This document shows, piece after piece, positions 5,921 through 61,300 of a stretch of 64,000 nucleotides of DNA (its first letter is position 1; every line of letters starts with the position of its first letter). Source of the stretch: Tubiluchus corallicola (lineage: Eukaryota; Animalia; Priapulida). The DNA is taken from positions 124,001-188,000 of the forward strand of contig JAQGDQ010000228.1 of the NCBI GenBank assembly GCA_030141605.1, given 5' to 3'. The position numbers and the translations under genes are program-made. The notes beneath the pieces are model-generated. The model did not search any database and was not told where the DNA came from. It saw only the letters and a program-made list of their open reading frames with translations.

Positions 5921-8900
5921 CTACACGAAAGTGAAAACAAATGCAATAAAAAGAAGCTTACAACGATAATGAAAGCATATTAGAATTTGATGTATTCTTC
6001 AAAATTGGAATAAACTTTAAACAGTTGAAACAAAATCATGCAACTTTTTACAGGAAAGTAGTGTGTACATTTAAAATAAATTAAAAACAGCTACGAAACT
6101 AATTTAAAAAATAGTAGCAATTCACGGTACCTTGAATAAACTCAAAAGCAGTGTGGCCTTTATACAAAGTGAGGCTAATAAATCGTATAGGTAAATTGGT
6201 TAGGGACCATCCACATATAACGATATGAAGATTAGAGTAAGTAAGTCGCAGGAGACGTGTTAACACTATTATAAAGCAAGGTAGGTAGGTGATTTAGCTA
6301 TGATATCATTATCTGACTTCACGCTTTGATGTGGACAATGAATGGTCATTATTGACCATGAGGAGGAGGAATTTTCAAAATGGGTCGATGAGAATGAGTT
6401 CAGTGAATTGGGGCTTGCACCACCTCCACTGCTGATGCTAGTAAAATCCACCGATGGTTTCCTGTTAATTGACATGAATGATGTTGTTGCCGTCCTATGA
6501 GGAGGAATAAAGTGTACAAACATGTGGTGTGACATCGATATCATTATAAGGGGCAAATAGGTGGAGGGGCATATGATAACGCCATTGTAACGCAAAGCAG
6601 GTAGGTTTTCAAAATTAGTCAAAAACTTTATATCTTTATATGCGGATGGCCCCCTATTTTAAATAAATATTTATCATTAAAAGATATACACGATGGAATG
6701 TTAATTATACATAAAATAATAACTGTGTACAAACATTTCGGAAATCAATAAAATCGTGGTTTGGTTAGTTGTACATGGTTAGGAACTATGCTATCTCTAG
6801 TAAATACAGGAAACAGTAATTACTACCTACTTAGTAATTAGAAGACTTAATGTTGAGAAATAGTTGTCACTTATCTTTTAAATAAAACTAACTTGATTTA
6901 CTTTACCTTTACACTGCACGGCAAACTAACAACTCAATTTTTTAGTATTGTTATGCTTTAACATTGCTGCTGTCAGCAATATAATTATACGATACAATCG
7001 TTCTAGAATCTAGCAACTCTGGAAACGTTGTATGTAAGAGTAACAGAAACGGATTGCAAGATTAGCTAATTCCGAAAGTAGGTATAACATTATTTTTACA
7101 TAAATAATCCAAATACAGCTAAGCTTATGCAAATACGAATATTCCACGAAAAATTTTGCAGATCTTTTTTAATTCAATCAAGATCGTCATTCGAAAATGT
7201 ACTGTTTTTAATTGCTAGTAGTGGCAAGATTTTAGTAAGTGAATAACATAACAAATGAAGCACATACAGCACACAAGCGAGCAGCAGTGGTACGAGAAGG
7301 CACCAGAGAAACACTGGATCATCATAAGAACAGTTAGTGGATTATTTGTTATAGTTAAGTGCTACTTAGCCTGGCTTAAGAAGAACAGTACACCTGCAGG
7401 TAACATCTAAACTAATATTAAGGAATGAATTGATGACTCAATGTTAATCTGGCATTGCAGATATAGAGAGAGAGCACTTGGCAACCACTGATTACGCGTA
7501 TTTTGTAGCTATCCACACTTCAGGTAAGCATTAACAGAAACAAAGGTACATTGTAAAAATTTCGTCAATCATATTGTAGATGAGAAAAAATAACATATGT
7601 AACACGTTTTCTCATTCATATGAATTTGTTGTACTTGAATTTGCAAAATATAATCAAATTTCCATAAAAACTCATGTTGTTCATGTTTATGTTGTTATTC
7701 CATGTCATGTTATTATGCCCGCGTTTATCTTTGGACATGAAGCAAATACGGATGAAATTCCATGTATAAATTTTGCTAATCCAAAATTACCATAAAGTTT
7801 TTAATTTTTCATACAAAAGTGCGAAAACTGCCTGACACGACGAAGATAAAATGTTTTTGGAAATGAACTTTGAAGATCATATTACACAGTTTTGTGCAAA
7901 ATTAGGCAGAAAAACAATTTAAGCAAACTTGATAAATACTTTGGTTTTGAATAAAAATTTTGTGCCACATTAAAAAAGCAGTACTAACTTTGTAAATGAG
8001 CTTCATCAGAATAGCCAAGATTGAATATTAGTAACAATTTGACATGTATTCAACCTATACCAACACACTGAACATCTCAAGCATATAGATGCTGATTTAC
8101 AACACTAGTTCATGCACAAAACTGTTAGTAGAATAACTCAAAAGACATCGCTGCTATCGGTAACAAAAAGAAGAGAAACTAAAAGCAAAGCGTCATGCAA
8201 AAAATAACTTACCAATGATAATTATCACTATAACCAATATTATAGCTATGATAATAATCCACATCTGAAAGTACATGTACAAAAGCATAAAACAAAATAA
8301 ACAAACACTCGTTACATTAAAATAAACAAATAAACAAACACTCATTACATTAAAATATCATGCAAGTAAACATCCAAATGGCTCTTCAAAACTGCCTCAG
8401 TTTATCAACTTTTTTATTTAAAGTCATTGTAGTAGGTAGCTTGCCATTATCAAAAGGCAGTCAAGAATAAAATCATTATTATTATTGCGCATTGAGGATT
8501 CAATAATATTTTATGAACTGATGTTTTACAAAATTTTTGTTAGCTACAACTGCCTAGTAACTTTTCATCTGTAAATGAAACTTGATGAAGTATTCTTTCT
8601 GTTTTGTGTATAAATTACGTCTTAAAAAGCCAATGGTTACGTGGACAACTGGATATAACAAAAAAATTGCTTGAACCTTAGGATAACGATAACGGAGGTA
8701 GTTTGACACCAAAGGCAAAAGTATCCTTAGTGTTTGTTCTTCAGCCCTTTCTCCCACTTGGCCACCTCCAAAAGACAGTTTTTGTTATATAGTATGATAG
8801 GTGTGTTATGTTTATGCATTAATTGAATGTCAATTACCTATTTGCAGAATGAGTTGGTTGAATATAAAATTGCATTAATGAGCTCACTGTGCTGGATCTA

Positions 8901-11900
8901 CAGGAGGAATCAAAATTTCTGCAATTTTCATTTTGCTGCACGCTCTTCATGTACATACTCTTCACTAGATTCACTCAGCCTTTTCATCTGAAAATTTTTG
9001 ACATCCTAACCATTTCTTACATATGTACTTTCATTTCATTAGTTTTATCATAACTCCACCTTTTTACCTTTTGTTTCCTGCATTATGCTACTGAAGACTG
9101 CTACTGAAGACTTCAATTTCTTATAAGTTTGTCTGTCATAATGAGATAAATGCAAGAGACCTTTTTATTAATGGAAGGATCTGCTGCTGTATACATACAA
9201 ACTATGGACAAAAGCAAAAATAATGCATCAGTAGTTTCTGCCATTAAATGACATATCTGAGGAAGCCAGGTGAAACGAAAGCAGAAAGTGTTTTCTGCAG
9301 GAAGGCAGCTCTGTGTTAACATGGACAAAATTTTGGTACATAAACAACAACCCACATACTATATTATTAATTACGCCTAACTTAGGAACTAAGTTTGGCC
9401 CTCTTAGCACCAATTTCTTGTGGCCTAGTTTGTCTAGTAGTGAGAGAGCCAGCACTGACTGGTAACATGACACAGAAAAACATGTTTAAAAAAAAATCAC
9501 AAACAATGGTAAACACTGTCTAACAAAAATAGCTATACTAGTGCTGGTGATACTTCTTTTAACAAACTTTGTGCAGGAACTAAAAACATCACACTGGCAA
9601 CAATAAATATATTTCCTAACAAAACATCAAGCATAGTTACAAACATGCATGTGATACTACAAACCCTAAGCTTACCCGCTATGATTATTACAATTACAAG
9701 TCCTATTCCAACCATAATAGCAATCATCTATTATGACAGCAGGAAAAATTACAAAAACAATTTTTTTTTACTAATTACCTGATAAAAATTCAGGTAAAAA
9801 AGCCGTGAAAAGTTTAATATTGTGATTAACTTCATTTTCAAATAAGTAAATTCAGTTAATTCACATTTGGCACACATATTTCGGCTATATTAAGGCTATT
9901 CGTCCAGTAACAATCTAAAAAGATATTTAGTTATAAAAATGCATGCGCTGCAAAATATCCCATTTAAAACTTTATTGAACAGGGCTGTTATCAGCATTTA
10001 GCTGAAACGAAATGGAAACTCAGCAAACATCATAGACTGGAACCAAACTAAAACTGGACACGAATGGCTTTGGCAGAAAACAAATAAATTTTATGTAAAA
10101 AGGACAATATAGTGGCACCTGTTCCAAGTTCAGGGCAAAATTATCCTATTGACAGTAAATTATATTAAGCTTAAACCTGACAACACAACAAATTTCGTGG
10201 AGGAAACCATTACTGTCTTTGGATTGCGAGGAAAACTTAAAGAGGACTTAAACTGCCAATAAATTTACAACTACAATCTAGTGTTATATGATAAAACCAC
10301 GTAATTGAACATGGTAAAACCTGTTAAATTAAGTGCAATGTATATTCTAAGATGCAGGAGCATACCAAGTTCAATAAAATTCCAAGCCAGCCGATAAGTG
10401 ATCAGTCTTCTGGGGAATTTCTGATTGTTCGAGTAAGAATGTTTGAATCAATCTGCCACAATAATCCTACTTTTACACATACAGTAGATAGTGCACATAT
10501 TTGTGAACAAGCAGTGAAACCAGGTCAGAAATACAAACACACTGATTATACATGATACATACCTTGCAGTTTTTCCACCAGTATTTCCGCTTCAGTTTTC
10601 CTGCACTGGCTTCAAACTGTGATGCTCCTTGTTGTAGAGCATCTAAAGCATAACAGGTATATTAGGTATACATCTATTCACAATTTATACATAAGTATAA
10701 ATAAGAAATTTGCAGAACTCAAAGAGTAATAAGGTAAAGACAGATCAACTAATGCCACTGAATGTAGGATCATATTCACAAATTTACTGGCAAACCTTTA
10801 ATCAAATGTCGTTTAAAATAAGTCTGTACATCCACCACACTAAGAACATCCATCAAGATGAGCAATCACTGATATAAAAGTACAGGGTGGTGCATCATCT
10901 TTAGCTGCAGGGGAGGGGGGAGAATGAGTAATAGTACAGAAAACATTTACATCAAAGTGTTACTCAAAAAGTAGCAAATCTATCATGTCCTCGAAATTTG
11001 TGAGAAAAGCCATCATAGGATTGGAGCAGTGATTCGAAGAACTCTAGATTCTCTAATACATCTTGCAACTCAACATCATCTAACATATTTTGCAACTCAA
11101 GATTCTCTAACACATCTTGTAACTCAAGAACATCTGACAGATCTTGCAACTCAGGATCATCTAACACATTTTGCAACTCGAGATCCTCTAACATATCTTG
11201 CAACTCAAGATCAACTAAAACATCTTGCAACTTAAGATCATGAAACACATCTTGCAACTCAAGATCATGTAACACATCTTGCAAGTCAAGATCATGTAGC
11301 ACATCTTGTAACTCAAGATCATGAAACACATCTTGCAATTCAAGATCATGTAACACATATTGCAATTCAAGATCATGTAACATATCTTGTAATTCAGATC
11401 ATGCAACACATCTTGCAACTCAAGATCATGTAACACATCTTGCAATTCAAGAACATGTAACACATCTTGCAACTCAAGATCCTCTAATACATCTTTTACG
11501 TCTCATAAACTTATCCCTTGAACACTAAATCAATGGCATGTCTTTTACCACATTAGCACCTACTCTGTCTTTCAGGATAACTTGAATGCGCTAGCCGGAC
11601 TGAGGCATGTGAATTTCCAGCCTTTCAGTTTGAAAAACTCTCTTACCCCTCAAAATTGCAAGCTGTGCGAGATACACGGGACTTTATTACTCTGAAGGTA
11701 TGGTAGATTCTCTTTGTTTATAATAAATTGTGCTTACTCATTGTTTTTGTAAAGTTTTGCAAACCCCTAGCAAAAGTTTCTGTATTCCCCTAGCAAAAGA
11801 TTGAATCTTTTGCTGTACCTCCCTGTACAAAAAACATTGGATTATTTAATGTGCATATTTACAATTGATGCCTGGCATATCATCAAGGTTAACCCTTTAA

Positions 11901-14900
11901 GATAGGCCCTGATCCAGATGGCGGTATCTCAGCCACGTTTACATACATTGTGCCCCCTACAAGGTTAACAGCCAGAATCAGCATGGCAAATGATACCACC
12001 TAAGCGGTTATGAGGTGATCAGTCTTAGCATGACTTAACTTTGGCCTTAACTTCAGCTATTGGTCTCGTGTTGAAATTCACCCAAAATTGTATTAGAAAG
12101 GGACAAACTTATCACAAAGAATTTTACATAGAAGATTTCAGCAAATTTTTATTGTAATAAGAAGAAAAGGTTTGCAGATACATCAGTGCTGAGAACCTGT
12201 TAAGATCAGAACAAACTTTCAGAGTCATACTTTTGGCACACATATAAAAGAACAATAATTTTTTTTAAGCTTTTTCACTGTCGGGACAGTGTCCAAAGTT
12301 TAAAAAGTTATAAAACTGATGCAAATATCTTTATATTACAAAACCCAAATGTATGAGAAGTTCAACCAGCTGGACGAAAGATTGTGTAATGACAATCTTA
12401 CAGCTTAGCATTTAAATAATAACATATAGTTTCCAAAGTTTGAATGGCAAAATCAAGATGGTATACTACAGTGATGCACAGGAAGCATAAAGCCTAAGAA
12501 GCAATGCTCTCCCGGTAATTAAATTAAGCCTTAAGTTACGACAGAGTTTCAAAGCTATTGGTTACAAATATCACAAATAAAAGCTATAGCTAATCTAATA
12601 CTGATTTTTTGCAATTCAGTAGAATACAATTTGTGTTTCATTGTACTTATGTTTAAAAAACCTCAACCACTGAGATCAGACTTTGATAAATATGATAGAA
12701 GACATACTTTGCAGGTTTAAATTAATTCAAAAAACAACTTATGCACAAATTTTAAGAAAGCATACATGAAATGTCAGCTATTTTTTAACAAAGTACATGT
12801 TAGACACCCTCTGTTCAATCCCGCTATACGGGTAAAAGGCTTAACTGAGAGAAAACCAAGTGCTGAAACACACATTAGGTGCAAATATATTCGTACCTGC
12901 ACGGTCATCCAACTCGGAAAGTTTGTTGTCTCTCTCAAGTACATGCTGCACATTAACCTTCATTATATCAACAACCTAAAAAAACAAGAGTTATGTACGT
13001 GGCATACCTGCTCTGTCATCTAGCTCCGAGAGCTTGTTATCTCTGTCTAGTACTTTCTCCACATTGACCCTCATTATGTCCACAACCTGTTAAAACACAA
13101 GCAAACACTAATGGCACATACGAGTGCAGTGTTTTTTTAATGCAGTGAGCACCACAAAAATGGATAAAAGTCAAGTCACGCTCACGCAAAAATTAACTTG
13201 TGCAAAATAGTGACATTACACAAGAGTAGGTTTTTATTAAGATGGAGAATTCTAACACCTCTACCTACTCCATAGTTTTGGCACTGTACCTCGTTAACTG
13301 TGCCACATTCAGAACAGAAAATACCACTTTGTATAAATGTTATTGTAATTGCCTAACTTTAAAAAAGTAAAATTTATTAAAAATGCAAACATAATACACA
13401 TTAGGTGAAACATCATGCTTACAACAATTAACCCAACAGCTAATTAATTGAAAGTGCTGAAAAATTGCGAGCCAAATCAGGGTTTGAGCTCACTACCTGT
13501 GGCACATGCTACACTATTTGAGCTGCTGACTCAACACGGCAAAACTGGTCTGAGATCTCACCCTAATAGTACACAGTCATCTGCTAGTGATATATAACTT
13601 CATTTGAATACATTCAAAAGTGAGAGTTGACTAACAGGCCTCTGCATCTTTCTAAGGGCAGGTGTGGGAAACTGGGCTCCTTTCTAAGGGAGGTGTGGGA
13701 AACTGGGCGCCTTTATAAGGGCAGGTGTGGGAAACTGTACGCCTTTCTAAGGGCAGATGTGGGAAACTGGGTGCCTTTCTAAGGGCAGGTGTGGGAAACT
13801 GTACGTCTTTCTAAGGGCAGATGTGGGGAAACTGGGTGCCTTTTGGGCGGTGTGGGTGGGTGTTTTGTGGGTGTGGGTGGTGGTTTGTTCCAAGGGTTTG
13901 GGTTGCTGGTTAGTCTGAAGCTCTAGTTTGGAAGCCCTTTAGCTGCCTGCTTAAAAGCCGAGCTGCTCACCACAATGTTTTACTTGTCTAACTGGGTGCC
14001 GTAACAGCAATAGGTTGTCTGATTACAATGTGCATTATCTTTAGAGTCAGTTGGTAGTAGACCGGCCATCAGGAGCCTCTGCTTGCTGTATGTCACATTG
14101 TAGCTTAGTATACATACATCTTACGTTTCGCAGATTTCAGTTATTCATCTTTTATTGCTATAAAATTTGTATTAGCGTTGACTACATATGTTCCAACATG
14201 AAAAAGTATTGTAAAGAAAAATACAACTAAAATTTTTGTATTGTTAGATTTTCTTAATAAGGGAAATATTCCTACAGTTTAGACATGTTATAATGATTAC
14301 ATGTGAGAATTTGATTAGTTTAGATAACTGCATCAGTCAACTTATTTTAGTTTTACACATTGGTAAATTTGATCTGTTCCTTGAACTTATGAAATAGATA
14401 TTTACTACATATTTTCTAATACAAAACCGTCAATTTATTAAGTTTAAAAGTGCTTCACAAAATCTCAAAAGCTGGAAATGTGAGAGGTTTTTGGGTGGAG
14501 GAGCACTTGTACAGGCACGTACCGCCATGGGCGCTTACAGCACTTCTACACACGTTCTGGGCACTTGCCCACTCTTGCTGTAGGATATTCAGAACTACTT
14601 GGTGTGACACACATGCAAACTTATGCTGAAATAAAGTTAGAACTTAAAATGCCTTAAATTCAAAGTTGTGCGGTCTGCAAAAAAGAATGTAACTTTGTGC
14701 ATTTTTGCAAGCACGTACTCCATTGCACACCATTAAGTTATCATCAGGTTCATAATAACCTGTCTCTATACTTCAATTACAGACTAAACTTAACAGATAA
14801 TCTCATTGAAATATACGCATGAAATGTAGAACAAATACATAATATCACCTGCAAAAAAATAGTGAAAAGCACTTGACAAATATACTTTATACAGTTGCTC

Positions 14901-16041
14901 AAATTACCCAAGTCACATTCACATGCTTGAATATTTACTCTGTAGTAAGCAGCATCACATACCTCATCAACTTGTGCTTGTGTCTGTTGTAACCTCTTCG
15001 ACTGCTGTGCAGGTTTAGGGCCATCCCCTCCTTGACCAGGGGCACCCGTAGCAGCTGGATCAGCCCTGTAAAACACATAATGCAAGCATTTATAAAACAC
15101 ATCACTAACATTTCAGCTGCTTCATTTTTGAACATTAAACATTTCAGTTTTGTAAAAATCCAAATAAGATCACAAGCTATCATTTCTCAATTTTTCACAT
15201 AGCAATTCTTCTCTTAATGACAAAAGAATTCCTGCTTCCAAAAAAGTACTGAATTTTGTTTGTCACATAATGGCGTTTCTGAGTTTCTTTTGTACTGATT
15301 CTGATAATTGAGAAATTGTTTGGGCCCCAAAAATGTAACAGAAATTACCAACAATTAGTAAGAAGCTTAAACGATTGGTAAAGAAATGGGATTCATCAGT
15401 GGTTCCTCACAATCACTGATATTGTATATTGTGTAATTAGTCGCAGTCAATAAGACAGATACGAAAACCTCTACCGCATTTTTCTCACTAGACTAACAAA
15501 CGCTATACATAAATGGCAAGGTTGTTTATTTTCTAATGTCAGCTCTTCTTTTTGTCCTCTGTCTACTGGTGTGAATTTTAAAAAAACTGATGTGGCTGCA
15601 AATTTATTCACAAACTTGTACTTGTAAAAAATACTGCCAAGATGATATAATTTTCACAAATTTTTATTTTTTTATAGTGCGCTCGGAGAAGTAGAGGAAT
15701 CAATAACAAAATATGCTAATCACCAACAGTTATTACAGATTTGTCAGATTACAGATTTGTCAAATGTATATGTTAAATCTACATGTCTTCAGGGAGTTTC
15801 TTAATAACCGATATGTGCCTGGGATTGCACAAAGCTGAATGGGTTGTGACCCAGAAATAACTAATATTATTCTTAATTATATATTACAGAAAACATGTGT
15901 TAATAATGTTATACTATTCAGGTAGTAAATCAAACTTGAAATTCAGAAAAACCCAAAAACAACAAGATAGACATAATTGTAATGCACGACATGCCGATTT
16001 CTGCCGTATAACAGTATTTATCATGCGGTAAATACTCACAT
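5892..16041 (-). CDS. VAMP: Synaptobrevin/VAMP family R-SNARE (about 114 aa per isoform), alternatively spliced
   Basis: AT(16041-16040) + 15065-14963 + [13086-13008 or 12975-12897] + 10642-10563 + [9727-9676 or 8264-8213] + 5920-5892 gives [99 protein letters not shown]. It contains the zero-layer Arg, the QF bond and the juxtamembrane WWKN. All junctions are GT-AG with compatible phases. Confidence 0.95.
6203..6653. mobile_element. MITE with about 25-bp terminal inverted repeats (PIF/Harbinger-like ends)
   Basis: Left end gggaccatccacatataacgatat matches the reverse complement of right end atatctttatatgcggatggcccc; flanks tta/cta. A related decayed copy lies at about 17066-17660 (ggggccatccacat; atgatattattatctgacttcatgcttt). 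Confidence 0.7.
8213..8264 (-). CDS. VAMP: VAMP transmembrane exon, variant B
   Basis: 52 nt, [17 protein letters not shown]+G; acceptor gtactttcag, donor gtaagt; same length and phases as variant A. Confidence 0.85.
9676..9727 (-). CDS. VAMP: VAMP transmembrane exon, variant A
   Basis: 52 nt, [17 protein letters not shown]+G; AG acceptor after a pyrimidine tract, donor gtaagc. Confidence 0.82.
10563..10642 (-). CDS. VAMP: VAMP exon: C-terminal SNARE half and juxtamembrane region
   Basis: 80 nt, (D)[26 protein letters not shown]; acceptor tgctttag, donor gtatgt. Confidence 0.95.
11040..11495. repeat. 27-bp minisatellite, about 17 copies, in a VAMP intron
   Basis: Unit acatcttgcaactcaagatcatgtaac with an internal inverted pair atcttg/caagat; it produces the LQDVLHDLE repeat ORFs. 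Confidence 0.9.
12897..12975 (-). CDS. VAMP: VAMP SNARE-motif exon, variant B (mutually exclusive)
   Basis: 79 nt, [26 protein letters not shown]+G; acceptor cttgtttttttag, donor gtacga; 32 nt downstream of variant A. Confidence 0.88.
13008..13086 (-). CDS. VAMP: VAMP SNARE-motif exon, variant A (mutually exclusive)
   Basis: 79 nt, [26 protein letters not shown]+G; acceptor ttttaacag, donor gtatgc. Confidence 0.93.
13648..13883. repeat. G-rich 31-33-bp minisatellite (6 copies) plus a GT-rich tail
   Basis: Unit ctttctaagggcaggtgtgggaaactgggcgc repeated over 13648-13843, then gggcggtgtgggtggg... Confidence 0.88.
14963..15065 (-). CDS. VAMP: VAMP exon: N-terminus and start of SNARE motif
   Basis: 103 nt: g+[34 protein letters not shown]; acceptor ttttacag, donor gtatgt. 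Confidence 0.93.
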
Positions 16042-48323: not shown

Positions 48324-49299
48324 GCATAATAGTTTTCATTATTTAAATTTTGTGGGCAATTTTAGTGCAGATGGTAGAGTTCGTTTTGTTAGCTAATTTA
48401 TCTATCTGTAGTGGCCTACTAGGTTTTTGATGTTTTTGCGTGTGAGAGTGTGCAAAGGTGCTTGGGTCACCCTGTATCGGATGGACGTTAAAATATTCAA
48501 TACTAGGTGGAGCTATAGGCCAAGACTAAGTTTGTTTATCATAGTAACGAAAGAGCGAAGCAGCATGAATACTAGTCTTTTTGGGAGAAAATTTGTTGAT
48601 CAACAATTTAATTACATAGAAGCAATGTTACGCAATCTATATTGACGCAGTAGCCTTTTACACACTGTTGTTGTCTGAGTTCGACACTGCATGTATTATT
48701 GAAAATTACTTTATTAAAAGTATGTAGCCGTATGCACAGTACTCAGTAGGTTTCTGGATGTAGTTAAGAAAGCCTGTAAGTGTAAGTATCGTTGTATGTA
48801 TAATTATGTATTGCGTTACGTTATTGATACGGACCTTAACTTATATAGATAGTGTGAAAAGATGCACTTTATGATCTGATTACATCAAGAAAAGATATCT
48901 TCTAAAAGTACTGACGAGTATTGGCAATTGTAATATTGACTGTTGTTGTGGCTATTTCCAAATTCTAATAAATGTGTTAATCAGCAAACGTTCTTGCTGA
49001 AAATGGTATCACTAGAGCTGAATGAATGTCCTGAAAACCAGAAAACAATTTTTTGAATTTTATCCTGTAAGCTTTGATTAGTTTTTTCCAACTTTACAAT
49101 TGACTGTTATGTTATGTGAATGAAGTCAAATGTTACTGTTACTATTATATTAATTTTCTAATCATTTAAAAAACACTACGTATGTTATGCTTGTCTCATT
49201 TTTCTTATCATAGGTGCAATGGCAATTGAGCAAGTTTGTTTATTATTAAAATCAATTGCTCAGGATGATCTTGTTGATGTAAACTAGCCATTAGAGACA

Positions 49300-52107
49300 A
49301 TGAGTTTGAATAACAAAATGAAGTGCCAACAAAAACACGAGTTTTCAACCTTTACTTATATTAATGACCTAGTACAAACATTGGAAGCAGTTAACAACCA
49401 AATTCTATCACCACCTAGAACATCTGAGGAAGTGGCACAGAAGCTCGAAAAGCTATTGAAATCTCATAAGAGTATCTGCAATGTGTCATTAGATTTGCAA
49501 GAAGCGGTGACTTATGTTATGAGAGATGTTTTGTCAGAAATATGGGAAGATTTTTGCCATATACCTACTAGTCCATATTTAAGTAAAGATCAACATTTGG
49601 AATTATTACGGCGTACTGTGGTGCAGGTCATATCGTATTTCTTAGAGATATCTATATCATGCCTTTATGAAGCAGCACAGCTTGAAGAACAGCAACTTTT
49701 AAACAAAGAAGGAAAGTTGCTAACACAACTACAGACTGAGCTAAACAATATAATATGTGTAGATTCGATAGCAGCAGAAATTCTAAATTTTATGCGTGTT
49801 TCTAAAAAAGATACAAGTAACGGAAACTTCAAGCCAAAGCTGTTAAACAAAGGTGCACAAGGAAATCTTTTTTCCACAAAAACAAATGGCCTAGCAGAAT
49901 ATTTGGCTGTGGAAATTCCTGTCTCAGATGTGGATTTATTAGATAAAACAAAACAGTTACTTGAAAAAGACAATAGTTATGAAGCACCTAAAGACTTAAA
50001 AATGGTTAGCGGAGCTCCCAAAGAAGGTTTGCTTTCTGACATTGCCAATTTTCATGAAATTACAAATTTCCAAGATGCTCACATTTCAGAATTGTTATAT
50101 GAAGATATGTCACAAATTTCTCTTATAAACAATCATTTAATACATGATATTGATCACAAACATAGTGGCAAGAACAATCAGAGAGATGACTGCAGTGTGT
50201 GGTCTGAAAATGGCATAAATGATAGTACTATTCCTCCATTAATAATAGCTGGAACTGCTTATAATGATAAAGTTAACAGGATTTCTGATTCTAATGAAAA
50301 ATTAGATGAGGTCAAAAAGACATACACTAAAATACTCTCAAAAAAGCACCAGGAAAAAGCCATCCCTACAATAACTGAAAAGAATGAAATAGCAGTATCG
50401 CCTTACAATGTACGTGTGAGTGATCGCATTTGGCCATCAAATGTGTTGCTCAAACCTTGCGAAATGAAGTTTAATCCGCTAAAAGATGAAATTAGCGAAG
50501 TTTTGTCAAGAATGATAGATAGGAATTTGTTTACTCAACAAGAATTAAGTGGATTTTATGAGCGTATCATGAAAACAATGGCTGAAGATTATTTTAGCAT
50601 AAAAACTAATCTGCCTCTTGAAATTGCAGTAAGAAAGCAAACGAAACTTTCACGGTTTACAGTGTCACACGTAATCAAACGAAACCCCGAAATGTCTTTG
50701 CGAGTTGTGAACGAAAATCTTAAAGGTCATCAATCTAAGGCTGTAGACAAACCAACAAAACTTGCTGACTACAAGAATTATAAAAACTGGATCACTCTGC
50801 AGGATACTGATTACTTGGTAACCCTCCTGAATCCTGAATCATTTATTACCATGACTCCAGAGGAACAGGAGACTCTCAAAAAGAGGGAAGCATTAGCTGC
50901 TGAAGCCATTTTAAAAGAAGCACAAGGAGCACAACTGAAGCGCGTTTTGGAAGGAAAAAATCGAATATCTGTTGTTGAATCCAATGTTTTTCAATCCGGA
51001 CTTCGTTATTTTCCAATTGACGATAAAGAGGCTCCAAGTTATTCTGTTTTGACAATACCTGAACCAAACATTGCTATCACCCCAGAACTTCGAAAATTTT
51101 CTTTTTCACCACAACTTCAAAGGCAGTCTTTAAGAACGTCCATAAAAAACGTTGACAAAGCAGACCGGCTGTTGCCTGTAAAGGAAATTCCTTCGTCATC
51201 TGCAGAAAAAGTGGTTTCTACATTACCCGCAGTGAAAGTGGAAAAGTCGTCTTCTACGACTACAACCAATCTGAGAGTTGCAGGTCAGTTTTCATCTGAC
51301 TGCATTGATGAAGCCGTTCGGCCATTGTTAAACACAGATAAGCTGATTTACTCTCCACCAGGTACTACGTCATTGTCTGTCCAAAAACCTGGACAGTCTT
51401 CATTTCAAACCTGGACAGAACTGACACGTCATTTCACATCTGATGGTGCTAAAGAAATTGTAGAGAATGCAGAGAATCTAATTCATTCATCATCAACAAA
51501 AAAGTTAAAAAATGTTTGCTTGAGGGTGGAAGAAACTGAAACCTCAAAGAGAAAAACTCGTCTTTCACCTAATTTGGTTGACTTGCGTTATAGGCAGACC
51601 GGTCCTCCAACCGATGATTTCGTTAAATTTATCCAAGGTCAGTACAGTGACAAACATCAGAAGCAATTAGATGCTGTGTGGAGTAAGCTGAAAATGACAA
51701 CAAGCGATCGCGTAGAAATGATGGTTAAATACTGCCCAATGAACAGCAGGCCGAAGGCAACAGAAAAAGTTATCAAACTATGGGAAACCACAACTAGTTT
51801 AATACTGCAACGAGAGCATATATTAGAGCAATTAGAAGTTCTTGAGCGCACAGCTTCTGATCCTGTTAGGTTTTTCAGACGGGGATGGAGAGGCTTGGAT
51901 GAAGCTGCAATGCGTTCGAGAATTAATGCAGAATTATACAAACTCGAAGCTCAACTTTCTAAGTTATTAACATTCGCGAAGAATAGGTACAATGACATTA
52001 TTTGTTATAAAGGCAGATCGTATTTAGACAAAATGAAATGGGACAGAACTGAAATGTTATTTTGGCTTCAGGAGGAACGCCGAAAAAATATTATAGGCTA
52101 TATATAA
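49300..52107 (+). CDS. CCDC87: Coiled-coil domain-containing protein 87-like, single coding exon, 935 aa
   Basis: Uninterrupted 2808-nt ORF. The C-terminus QKQLDAVWSKLKM...RVEMMVKY...WE....LILQRE..L..LE.LERTASDPVRFF...YKGRSYLDKMKWDRTEMLFWLQEERR matches the conserved CCDC87 C-terminal domain as I recall it. A splice acceptor lies upstream at 49212-49213. Confidence 0.85.
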   Translation: MSLNNKMKCQQKHEFSTFTYINDLVQTLEAVNNQILSPPRTSEEVAQKLEKLLKSHKSICNVSLDLQEAVTYVMRDVLSEIWEDFCHIPTSPYLSKDQHLELLRRTVVQVISYFLEISISCLYEAAQLEEQQLLNKEGKLLTQLQTELNNIICVDSIAAEILNFMRVSKKDTSNGNFKPKLLNKGAQGNLFSTKTNGLAEYLAVEIPVSDVDLLDKTKQLLEKDNSYEAPKDLKMVSGAPKEGLLSDIANFHEITNFQDAHISELLYEDMSQISLINNHLIHDIDHKHSGKNNQRDDCSVWSENGINDSTIPPLIIAGTAYNDKVNRISDSNEKLDEVKKTYTKILSKKHQEKAIPTITEKNEIAVSPYNVRVSDRIWPSNVLLKPCEMKFNPLKDEISEVLSRMIDRNLFTQQELSGFYERIMKTMAEDYFSIKTNLPLEIAVRKQTKLSRFTVSHVIKRNPEMSLRVVNENLKGHQSKAVDKPTKLADYKNYKNWITLQDTDYLVTLLNPESFITMTPEEQETLKKREALAAEAILKEAQGAQLKRVLEGKNRISVVESNVFQSGLRYFPIDDKEAPSYSVLTIPEPNIAITPELRKFSFSPQLQRQSLRTSIKNVDKADRLLPVKEIPSSSAEKVVSTLPAVKVEKSSSTTTTNLRVAGQFSSDCIDEAVRPLLNTDKLIYSPPGTTSLSVQKPGQSSFQTWTELTRHFTSDGAKEIVENAENLIHSSSTKKLKNVCLRVEETETSKRKTRLSPNLVDLRYRQTGPPTDDFVKFIQGQYSDKHQKQLDAVWSKLKMTTSDRVEMMVKYCPMNSRPKATEKVIKLWETTTSLILQREHILEQLEVLERTASDPVRFFRRGWRGLDEAAMRSRINAELYKLEAQLSKLLTFAKNRYNDIICYKGRSYLDKMKWDRTEMLFWLQEERRKNIIGYI

Positions 52108-57886: not shown

Positions 57887-58382
57887 AGCATTAAAACTGG
57901 CATTCTTTATGCGCCAGAGAATCTTTCAGCAAGAGAAGCCACCTTCTTGCTTTCACTCTTTTAATAGGAATTACTATAATAAAGCACGTCTCGCTTTATA
58001 GGCCTACAATTTATGATTACCGCGCGGCTGATAGCATTGCAAGTAGGAATCTAATAATGCGCTGAAGATTAATAACTGCTGTAAGGCAATGTGTTGATAA
58101 TATCGATATAGGCAGGCTTATCGGACGTGTATATGAGCTTTGCGTCAGTAATAAGGCTGCGAGTGTAATCAAAGCTAGCTATGTGCGCGGTGAACACGTT
58201 TGTTTAATGGTTATTAGCGAGGGGATACAGCGTGTCTGCGGCGCAGTGCTTAATTGCTGATATCTGCTGCTCAATCGTGCTATTGATTCGATCTGCGCTG
58301 CTTGTCACAATTAAGTGATTCGTTGAAGCAGCAGAGCTCTTAGTTTGCCTTGTGCCGCGAAGTTACTCGACGTGCCTCCACC

Positions 58383-61300
58383 ATGCAGCAGATAGACTTC
58401 TCGTTAAAAAACTCTTCAGTTTCCGTCCATGTATCTACCACTCATGACCTTAACGTCTTACTAAGCAACCGTCCACTGCACATGCCTCCTCCGAGGCCTA
58501 TACCTAGATACACTTGTGCTGGTACGTGGCATCCACATATATACGAAAAATCACCACGCGAACCAACGCCACACGGCATTGATGATATTCTTGGTAGGAT
58601 AGCAACGGGAAAGACTGAAGACGTTACGTCACCGATGGTAAATGGTCGTACTTCAGTGGATATATTGGCGTCGAGTGAAAGCAGCTGCGGTTCAGTGACA
58701 AATGCAGCATCTCAAGGTGAGTCATAATCAGTCATTACCTTTAGGTACTAAGCATGGTAAACCAGGGCTTTTCTGTGACACAGGAATTTGTATTTATTTT
58801 TTCATAAACATATTTTTTGTTATTATTTTTCACACATAATGTGGCCTTTGGTCAACATTAAAGCTGACGTAAAGACCTTAGGCAAGATACAAAATAAATT
58901 TCAAAAGATTCTGCTAAAAACAATGCATAACAAAATGTGACTGCATGATCAAAAAAATACAAGTCTGTTTCCTTACTCAAATCTACCAGTATTCTTAATG
59001 ACTATTTCGAAAAGTGTAATATTTTAGTAATAGTTTAATAAAGGACTACCATTTAAAAAAGAAGAATTAAAGATTGGGTGTCCAAATTGAACGCATTCAT
59101 TGGTAATACGTTATTTTGAAACATGGAGAAGGCCATTCGAGGATGAAAAGTACGACGGATTCAGTAACAGAACCACATAAACATTTTTTATCCGCAGTAT
59201 TGCCGTTTGTATTTCTCATTTCTTTTGTAGGCATTATAGCCCCTCTGCACTTTGGATAACTACTAGAGTAGACCTATAGAAAGTAAAAGTGTTTGTAATT
59301 CTTTGTTGCTTTTAAATTGCATTGTTTTTGTGTAGCCGAATCATTAAACATTCACTAGTTTTGCCGTTTGTTTATCACCCGAACGAGTTGTTCGTAACTA
59401 ATGGTTATTCTTTAAAGTTTGCAACTTTTTTAACTGCCTCTTTATAAAAACACAGTCTCGGACCCGCTGGTTTTGAAAATATTGCGGTTTTTTGAATACC
59501 ACGTGAACATATGTATGTACAGTACCTCGGCATATCTTGTCTGTTAACAATGAAAAAATATTCGTGCATTTTCTTTTTTAATTGATATTTTTTACCTGAA
59601 AACTTGACTTTTGGCCTGTATTACTGATACGTAAATACTGTGTCATCTAATTCTATAAGGGTCACATTTGGCTTAACAGATACGCTTTATGTCCTATAGA
59701 ATAAATGGACATCTAAAAGTGAAGCCATATATTCAATGCATAATCTAAAACATTTAATTTGCAAATATGAGATTATTTAATAAAATCAAAATTAATCATT
59801 ATTGCAGGCATATCAAATTTTGACATGGGAAAAGCGAATTAATTATTTACACCCGACAAAAAGCCAATTAGGACTTTTAGTCGATATAATATTATGACAC
59901 CAAATAGATTTGTAAATGTGATTTTCATACACTTTGATGAACTCACATAACATGATAAGTGTACCTATGCCCGCATCGTTAACTCTTGCCCTGTTTTAAT
60001 GTTGCTACAGTAACAAGCAATGAACGTTTAAACAACGTTACGCATGTGTACATTATTAAAGCAATATAATTGTCTACATTTATAATAATGCACCAGACAC
60101 ATGGGGCCTGATTACGTCTACTTTTATTGTTGTAGCGAAATTGATAAAACTATGATAGTATAATAATATAATATGTTAGTAAAATAAAGCTGTCACACGT
60201 CATTTTGCAATCCAAGAGTACGCGTTTTAATCCATTAGCTTCATAAACGACCGTCTGTTTATTTTTTGTATTTAATTTTATTTGCATCTTGTCCTATTTG
60301 TGTATTTGTAGATGATTCTTATAATTTATGTAAAAAATTGTCTTAAATACTTTAGGCATTTTTTTACGATATTTTAAATTTTTATTTTAGTACTATGTAC
60401 CTACTACTGGATGGATGACAGGCAGAGACCTGTTTCAGGATTTAGTTCCTTGCTGTCATCCATAGTTTTAGGTACAACCTGTGTCTTGCTCATGGCTATG
60501 TAAAAGTATCTTACTGTTAACTTTTTACTGATGTAGAAATGCACATATTTTTGTGCCCAATAAATAGTAAATAATAAAGAAACCAAATTAATTAAACCCA
60601 CGTGTTCCACAATACTAAATACGTGTTCCGAATTGTATATAGTGCAGTATACCTGAGTATACGTACATTAGTGTAGTCAAATAATGTAGGCCAGGCTGAT
60701 TTTTATATGTAAAAACGATAGATCTTAAAACCTAGTTAAAATCTGGTAAATGCGAGATGAGCAAGGGCGGTTTAATTTAGGACAGTCAAAGACACAAACG
60801 TTGATCCTTATAATGCACTTTATTGACGTGACTGCGGGTAGAACACTAAAACGCTGGCTATTAGGGGACTCATCTCACTGCTGTAATATGACTAAACCGT
60901 GTCAGCTGGCCTGGTGTCATGCCGTAATATTATCACCGTATAATAGCCTACTTAATTCCCACTTTATGGGGGTATTTAATAGAAATGCGACAGCCACTAT
61001 GATATGCGCTTTAATGGAAACGAAGAGTTGACGATCCGTCATTAGGGAACACAGAATTTATCAGCCTAATAGCTTTATAAATGCTTGCTGGCTTGTACGC
61101 CCATTGTCAACTAAAGTTAGAAGCGCCTGCATCTATAAAACACTAATTAGTCTTTTCTTTAATACTTGTTATTAGCTGGGAGATAATTTGTCATTTTTAT
61201 TGGTTTTCATGTGGCAAGGAACATTTGTTTCACCATTATAAAACCATAATGTTATGACTACTATTGCAAAAAAACATGACAAAATATGGACACCCTCTGT

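What the first reader, a model, noticed from the sequence alone, without database searches (positions are those of the whole stretch)
12897..13086. Synaptobrevin with two mutually exclusive SNARE-core exons only 32 nt apart
Seen: two 79-nt paralogous exons with intact AG/GT ends, encoding [26 protein letters not shown] and [26 protein letters not shown], separated by a 32-nt spacer (12976-13007). Of 26 codons, 10 differ synonymously and only 4 change the residue (R/K, E/Q, K/H, D/E; VAMP2 positions 47, 51, 52, 55). There are no indels or stops, and the hydrophobic layers and zero-layer Arg are identical. Including both exons shifts the frame. Established: very short spacing blocks joint splicing sterically, and duplicated exclusive exons are known for SNAP-25 (5a/5b). 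I do not recall such a switch in the SNARE motif of a VAMP. Inference: an old duplication under purifying selection lets one gene make two v-SNAREs that differ only in exposed residues of the N-terminal SNARE half, the region used by AP180/CALM-type sorting adaptors.
Basis: partly seen in the sequence, partly recalled or inferred. Interest (0 to 1): 0.85.

Follow-up and report, generated by a model that had tools for sequence, protein, structure and literature searches.

The report
Swappable fusion-helix exons in worm synaptobrevin
The gene for the vesicle-fusion protein synaptobrevin, in what is likely a priapulid worm, carries two intact 79-base copies of the exon for the first half of its fusion helix, only 32 bases apart, so it likely makes two versions of the protein by using one copy or the other, as the annotated genes of spiders, ticks, crustaceans and mayflies do.

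Summary
Observation confirmed: two 79-nt AG/GT exons, 32 nt apart, 10 synonymous and 4 residue-changing codons. Synonymous sites are near saturation, dN/dS is about 0.06 (Fisher p 1e-5): both copies are old and under purifying selection. The gene is closest to Priapulus synaptobrevins. No RNA covers the pair, so exclusive use here is inferred from the 32-nt spacer (23 introns next door are 94 nt or longer) and frameshifts. The same switch is annotated in arthropods: 28 protein pairs from 11 genera differ only in this segment, and 4 distinct metagenome loci hold both exons 451-972 nt apart. Insect nSyb-type proteins carry the second type, most Syb-type the first. The window's pair lacks the arthropod signature residues; one origin or two is unresolved. 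The gene also has two membrane-anchor exons and two tails. The adaptor idea is untested: the key CALM residues are unchanged. This scan noted the arthropod pair before on other DNA; eight paper searches found no description. New here: a likely non-arthropod case with steric spacing.

The parts
16040..16041 (-). End of predicted exon 1: the AT of a split start codon, followed by a GTGAGT donor; start of the exon not determined
   Evidence: sequence; inferred, no RNA
14963..15065 (-). Exon 2 (103 nt), N-terminal proline/glycine-rich part and start of the SNARE motif
   Evidence: homology to P0012, P0005
13008..13086 (-). Exon 3A (79 nt), VAMP2 positions 42-67; peptide identical to the Priapulus caudatus protein P0005
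12976..13007 (-). 32-nt spacer with GT donor, one TAAC branch-point-like site 17 nt from the donor, a T tract and AG
   Evidence: sequence; branch point is a consensus reading only
12897..12975 (-). Exon 3B (79 nt), differs from 3A by K47, Q51, H52, E55
10563..10642 (-). [quoted passage not shown]
9676..9727 (-). Membrane-anchor exon 5a (52 nt)
   Evidence: a contig of run X2 joins it to 7517 across GT..AG
8213..8264 (-). Second membrane-anchor exon 5b (52 nt, AG/GT), predicted alternative to 5a
   Evidence: matches the second anchor type of tick, horseshoe crab and mollusc isoforms
7492..7517 (-). Terminal exon 6a, coding part to stop; tail identical to P0005 and P0128
5892..5920 (-). Predicted alternative terminal exon 6b, coding part to stop
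   Evidence: resembles the start of the tails of P0008 and P0012

Best explanation
The gene holds two intact, long-conserved copies of the exon for the first half of the synaptobrevin fusion helix, and each transcript likely includes exactly one of them, which would give two vesicle-fusion proteins with the same core and four different, likely surface, residues. Shown: both copies have intact splice sites, each alone keeps the frame, both or neither give a premature stop, and both are under purifying selection. Inferred, step 1: the 32-nt spacer is too short for the spliceosome to use the 3A donor and the 3B branch point together, and nonsense-mediated decay would remove stray double or null products. 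Inferred, step 2: 3A is the common form (it is the only type among the five Priapulus caudatus models seen) and 3B is a regulated form, most likely enriched in neurons, by analogy with insects, where the neuronal gene nSyb carries the second-exon type and Syb mostly the first. Inferred, step 3: replacing the E51-K52 pair by Q51-H52 changes the outer face met by accessory proteins (sorting adaptors, complexin, SNAP, SM proteins) and so tunes sorting or release, not the ability to fuse.
For: Anatomy and frames. dN 0.10 against dS 1.65, Fisher p 1.2e-5, 0 of 100,000 neutral simulations. All 23 introns mapped in the neighbouring SMC6-like gene are about 94 nt or longer; steric limit under 50 nt from donor to branch point in PMC5740500. 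28 pairs of equal-length proteins from 11 arthropod genera differ only inside this segment (names). Eight gene models carry both copies in tandem (P0009, P0010, P0011, P0013, P0014, P0040, P0194, P0202). 6 of 90 metagenome loci (4 distinct) hold two 79-nt copies, in the order G44 type then T48 type. All 56 proteins with the insect nSyb-type linker carry D44/T48. n-Syb is neuronal and c-Syb ubiquitous in Drosophila (PMC3265959, PMC8377282). H52 occurs in 0 of 62 distinct segments from other proteins and Q51 only in mayfly second exons (3 of 62), so 3B is a distinct, kept variant.
Against: No RNA read or contig covers 3A or 3B, and none shows either junction. None of the five Priapulus caudatus models seen has a 3B-like segment, and the search with the 3B peptide found no protein with its Q51-H52 word (6 candidates only). 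The window's exons lack G44 and T48, the residues that mark the arthropod pair, so the neuronal analogy may not carry over. V43 and M46, the key CALM contacts, are unchanged. Overexpressed c-Syb rescues n-Syb mutants in flies (PMC8377282), so such differences can be functionally small. Arthropod pairs lie 451-972 nt apart, so steric exclusion is not the general mechanism. The arthropod isoforms are annotation models whose read support I did not check. One locus (L054) has a broken first copy, so copies can be lost.
Confidence: 0.62

Rival explanations
1. Both exons are spliced one at a time, but the two proteins are interchangeable; selection keeps each copy intact only because each is used, and the four changes are tolerated drift.
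For: Changes at 47 and 55 recur freely across the family (K47 in 12 of 62, D55 in 9 of 62 distinct segments); CALM key residues unchanged; fly c-Syb rescues n-Syb when overexpressed.
Against: H52 is seen in none of 62 distinct segments; in arthropods the two types keep the same distinguishing positions 44 and 48 in all 28 pairs, which suggests a kept difference there.
Confidence: 0.25
2. Exon 3B was functional for a long time but has recently been silenced, so only 3A is used today.
For: No 3B-type protein among five Priapulus caudatus models; no RNA evidence; 3B has the rarest residues; L054 shows that a copy can decay.
Against: Intact acceptor, T tract, donor and frame; the one X1 contig over each exon lists no other letter inside the exons but does in the flanking introns (weak, and X1 may be the source sample).
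Confidence: 0.09
3. On origin: the window's pair arose by its own tandem duplication in the priapulid line, converging on the arthropod arrangement, rather than being inherited from the common ancestor of moulting animals.
For: Both window exons share N58 with both Priapulus caudatus genes, and both lack G44 and T48; a tree holding the priapulid exons together is not rejected (p-AU 0.51); the nematomorph Gordionus isoforms show one ancestral type.
Against: In the best tree 3B falls with the arthropod second exons (support 77/87, not starred; the group was chosen after a first tree was seen); order in the gene matches; synonymous distance between 3A and 3B (pS 0.67) is within the range of cross-phylum comparisons (0.59-1.12); a nematode carries the G44 type and a tardigrade a T48 type; position 58 is labile.
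Confidence: 0.55
4. The tandem is an assembly artefact or two alleles placed side by side.
For: No single contig of run X1 bridges both exons; two contigs abut at 12990 inside the spacer.
Against: 17 of 79 nt differ with a strong synonymous bias; the spacer is unique sequence with its own donor and acceptor; each X1 contig carries its part of the spacer; tandem pairs exist in other genomes.
Confidence: 0.01

Closest known systems
SNAP-25 exons 5a/5b of bony vertebrates (PMC2581893)
   Same: Tandem duplicated, closely spaced exons in a neuronal SNARE gene, obligate choice of one, differences partly on the surface of a SNARE helix, old and conserved.
   Different: Other SNARE (Q-SNARE), other lineage; 9 of 39 residues differ and the exon includes the palmitoylated linker; here 4 of 26 differ, all inside the R-SNARE motif; tissue regulation and phenotype are shown for SNAP-25, not here.
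Annotated arthropod synaptobrevin isoforms (RefSeq and GenBank models of Limulus, Tachypleus, ticks, spiders, decapods, Hyalella, mayflies)
   Same: Same exon, same 79-nt length and phases, same position, one copy per isoform, and in chelicerates the same second switch in the membrane-anchor exon.
   Different: Arthropod pair differs at 44 (G/D) and 48 (V or M/T, D, E); the window's pair differs at 47, 51, 52, 55. Spacer 451-972 nt in the four arthropod-type loci read, 32 nt here. Decapods have three or four variants.
Drosophila and other insect Syb (c-Syb) and n-Syb paralogues
   Same: Two synaptobrevins that differ in this same segment; n-Syb-type proteins match the second arthropod exon, most Syb-type the first.
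   Different: Two genes instead of one gene with two exons; they also differ in linker, anchor and promoter.
Sterically enforced mutually exclusive exons (57 of 629 human clusters, PMC5740500)
   Same: Donor-to-branch-point distance under 50 nt, plus frameshift on double inclusion.
   Different: Not validated by reads here; VAMP does not occur in that paper's main text.

Membership tests
Synaptobrevin/VAMP1-3 type R-SNARE | Short N-terminus, R-SNARE motif with zero-layer Arg, C-terminal membrane anchor | tested here: met
   Predicted products of 113-114 aa; matches to VAMP2 structures and to PF00957 proteins
Mutually exclusive exons from tandem duplication | Neighbouring homologous exons of equal length and phase with intact splice sites | tested here: met
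Mutually exclusive exons from tandem duplication | Both copies under purifying selection | tested here: met
   dN/dS about 0.06, Fisher p 1.2e-5
Mutually exclusive exons from tandem duplication | Reads for each exon alone and none joining them | tested here: inconclusive
   Run X2 contigs do not cover the pair; no other RNA run listed
Sterically enforced mutually exclusive exons | Donor to branch point under 50 nt | tested here: met
   Whole spacer is 32 nt; shortest of 23 neighbouring introns about 94 nt; branch point itself not mapped
RNA-structure (docking site/selector) type | Competing conserved base pairing around the exons | tested here: inconclusive
   Fold z-score -0.79; only short inverted repeats; no shared intronic element with four arthropod-type loci; no close relative to test conservation
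Arthropod synaptobrevin exon pair | Same exon, length, phase and tandem position | tested here: met
Arthropod synaptobrevin exon pair | G44 in the first copy and T48 (or D, E) in the second | tested here: not met
   Both window exons have D44 and V48
Arthropod synaptobrevin exon pair | Descent from one duplication | tested here: inconclusive
   26-column trees; neither grouping rejected
SNAP-25 5a/5b-like regulated switch | Tissue- or stage-specific use with a functional difference | not testable with these tools
   No tissue RNA for this species; no binding or rescue data

The most novel reading that the evidence does not exclude
The exon pair dates from the last common ancestor of priapulids and arthropods, and one ancestral synaptobrevin gene made both a general and a neuronal vesicle SNARE by splicing. 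Insects later split these two forms into the genes Syb and nSyb, and the second switch in the same gene, the two membrane anchors, was split in the same way into vertebrate VAMP1/2 and VAMP3. The general and neuronal synaptobrevins of flies and of vertebrates would then be frozen splice forms of one gene.
Probability: 0.3. Interest if true: 0.75.

Novelty: new variant of a known kind. Interest (0 to 1): 0.52.

Why it matters
The SNARE motif of synaptobrevin is among the most conserved parts of the release machinery, and fly work leaves open why a neuronal and a general form are kept when one can replace the other (PMC8377282). A gene that swaps only this half-helix isolates the few residues that matter from promoter, linker and anchor differences, so the question becomes testable with two-to-four-residue swaps. 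A case outside arthropods either pushes the switch back to the base of moulting animals or shows that it evolved twice. It also warns annotators: gene models that join both copies (eight seen) are likely wrong.

Tried and rejected
No whole genome is held for the window, so paralogues elsewhere were not searched. RNA: no RNA holder listed; run X2 (RNA is a guess; a relative or other population, 14 other letters in 202 of 3' UTR) laid at 88 and at 80 per cent likeness gave no cover of exons 2, 3A or 3B; this is no evidence either way. Search with the 3B peptide plus intron read-through gave 6 candidates and no Q51-H52 protein; 90 per cent clustering can hide such a form. RNA structure as the exclusion mechanism: no signal. 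No TGCATG motif lies between 11405 and 14617, so none near the pair. Trees of 26 columns could not settle the origin. No complex prediction was run: four surface changes on a textbook helix would not be resolved. Assembly artefact and dead pseudo-exon were considered and given low odds. P0189, P0190 and P0192 carry two whole synaptobrevin units, likely fused gene models, and were not counted as exon pairs. The pair count misses variants whose segment begins differently (three decapod proteins). Look-ups of earlier findings by sequence and by place showed nothing.

Full report
Observation. Each alone continues the frame from exon 2 into exon 4; both, neither, or both with the spacer lead to a premature stop. 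The alignment to the VAMP2 chain 1sfc_A puts the exon at residues 42-67, so the changes are R47K, E51Q, K52H and D55E. That these lie outside the packing layers is recalled from the SNARE structure, not computed here.

Selection. Nei-Gojobori counts give 11 differences in 16.5 synonymous sites and 6 in 61.5 non-synonymous sites (dS 1.65, dN 0.10; Fisher p 1.2e-5), and 0 of 100,000 neutral simulations at the full or the half rate kept four or fewer residue changes without a stop. The synonymous distance (0.67) lies within the range between these exons and those of other phyla (0.59-1.12), so it is close to saturated and gives no date. A dead copy or a doubled assembly would not look like this. 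Two contigs of run X1 cover the two exons and abut inside the spacer; none bridges both, and X1 may be the source sample.

The gene. It has a predicted split start codon at 16041-16040, exon 2, the 3A/3B pair, exon 4, two 52-nt membrane-anchor exons (9727-9676 and 8264-8213) and two terminal exons (from 7517 and from 5920); all eight combinations give open frames of 113-114 aa, and both anchors together shift the frame. The only junction seen in a run is anchor 5a joined to the first tail, skipping 5b, in one contig of X2. The best protein match is from Priapulus caudatus: P0005 has the 3A peptide, exon 4 and first tail unchanged, but neither Priapulus gene retrieved has the window's N-terminus. 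I infer another priapulid, or a further paralogue; this is not shown.

Why one at a time. Hatje et al. count a donor-to-branch-point distance under 50 nt as steric interference, in 57 of 629 human clusters (PMC5740500, passages). The whole spacer here is 32 nt. The 23 introns mapped in the neighbouring SMC6-like gene with an 85 per cent identical protein run from about 94 to 2100 nt, so this animal gives no sign of using such short introns, though one gene is a small sample. A competing RNA structure was not found. No RNA covers the pair, so exclusive use in this species remains inferred.

Relatives. Among the proteins fetched, 28 pairs of equal length differ only inside this segment; all are arthropod (Limulus, Tachypleus, Rhipicephalus, Dermacentor, Parasteatoda, Trichonephila, Procambarus, Petrolisthes, Hyalella, Cloeon, Neocloeon), and all differ at positions 44 and 48 (names). 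These are annotation models; I did not check their reads. The isoform sets of Mytilus (13 proteins), Aplysia (3), Lineus (3), Gordionus (4) and Priapulus caudatus (5, two genes) show one version per gene. Eight models of spiders, an isopod, a springtail, a mayfly and a thrips contain both copies in tandem. A pattern for the exon end plus donor found 92 stretches in metagenome contigs, held as 90 loci. Six loci hold two copies; three of them are the same sequence type, which leaves four distinct ones, with spacers of 451, 690, 700 and 972 nt, G44 type first and T48 type second; in L054 the first copy is broken. Of the 19 loci that include both flanking exons, 2 have two copies and 17 have one: 8 of the ancestral D44/V48 type, 6 of the insect nSyb type, 3 of the G44 type. 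So the 79-nt exon is old and widespread, the pair is seen in arthropods and here, and the 32-nt spacing was seen only here.

Link to Syb and nSyb. Of 114 new proteins, 4 had more than one segment; all 56 with the insect nSyb-type linker carry D44/T48; 24 carry G44/V48, among them one named Syb by its source and one nematode protein; 3 braconid wasp proteins of the Syb type have D44/V48 instead. In Drosophila n-Syb is neuronal and c-Syb ubiquitous, and overexpressed c-Syb rescues n-Syb mutants (PMC3265959 and PMC8377282, passages; the rescue paper itself was seen only as cited). This suggests that the second arthropod exon is the neuronal form and that insects split the pair into two genes. The scan noted this before on other genomes (e1-7495079, e1-7500688); I had reached the same reading beforehand (note).

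One origin or two. The window's exons lack G44 and T48 and share N58 with both Priapulus genes, which favours a separate duplication; 3B shares K47 with horseshoe crab and most insect second types and Q51 with mayfly second exons, and a nematode has the G44 type and a tardigrade a T48 type, which fits an old pair with losses. With 26 columns the tree is mostly open. Holding the priapulid exons together costs 0.69 log units (p-AU 0.51); in the best tree of 29 rows 3B sits with the arthropod second exons at 77/87, not starred, and that group was named after a first tree had been seen; 12 of the 41 rows of the first tree were left out as duplicates or long branches. I put independent origin at 0.55.

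What the switch may do. CALM binds VAMP8 residues 10-41 (VAMP2 29-60 by the K24/V43 offset) as a helix, through a mainly hydrophobic face, with V43 and M46 as key residues; AP180 did not bind in that study (PMC3267021, passages and section 11). The four changes lie in that stretch but spare those residues; the full contact list is in a figure that I could not see. 3B loses the E51-K52 pair at no net change of charge; H52 occurs in 0 of 62 distinct segments from 332 proteins. I favour a change in accessory-protein contacts that tunes sorting or release; functional equivalence is the main rival.

Literature. Eight searches aimed at a prior description gave listings with SNAP-25 5a/5b (PMC2581893, passages) and a C-terminal n-syb exon (PMC6025963, passages), and nothing on a duplicated SNARE-motif exon in synaptobrevin. 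The library lacks most subscription journals, and I read no supplements; catalogues of predicted exclusive exons could list it.

Verdict. A real, old, conserved exon pair, likely spliced one at a time; a new variant of a known kind, already implicit in arthropod annotations. The window adds a likely non-arthropod case, a different set of residues and a spacing that would enforce exclusion by itself. Interest 0.52.

Noticed in passing
window 9727-9676 and 8264-8213 (minus): Second pair of equal-length (52 nt) exons for the membrane anchor. The two types match those in tick, horseshoe crab, spider, Mytilus and Aplysia isoforms. Fetched vertebrate VAMP3 proteins have the type beginning MW and VAMP2 the type beginning MM, so these paralogues may each have kept one exon; not tested by a tree.
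   Followed up: partly
window 8364, 8199, 8116 and 9649 (minus): TGCATG motifs (Rbfox-type, recalled) lie 100 nt before and 14 and 97 nt after anchor exon 5b and 27 nt after 5a; 7 occur in the whole gene. No chance control was run.
   Followed up: no
window 7517-7492 and 5920-5892 (minus): Two alternative terminal exons, as in Priapulus caudatus models; one X2 contig runs through the second acceptor unspliced.
   Followed up: partly
proteins P0310-P0317 (Procambarus, Homarus): Decapods show three or four versions of the SNARE exon, one strongly diverged (P0311) with changes at 43, 44, 48, 52, 54, 55 and later positions.
   Followed up: no
L054, first copy: The first exon copy has stops, small deletions and no intact donor while the second is intact: a possible loss in progress, or an assembly error.
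   Followed up: no
L007, L021, L045, L054 second copies: The second exon is 90-93 per cent alike in DNA among these loci and keeps an unusual GTTAAT donor in all four, which hints at splicing control on that exon.
   Followed up: no
window 20713-43738 (plus): SMC6-like gene (name recalled from its motifs) with 24 exons mapped by a 1066-aa relative.
   Followed up: partly
window 49288-52107 (plus): Single open frame of 939 aa with no intron, unusual beside intron-rich neighbours; not identified.
   Followed up: no
window 58344-58727 (plus): Open frame with an eh1-like repressor motif (recalled), possibly the first exon of a homeobox gene.
   Followed up: no
window about 11050-11500 and 13680-13830: Tandem minisatellites inside the introns on either side of the pair.
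   Followed up: no
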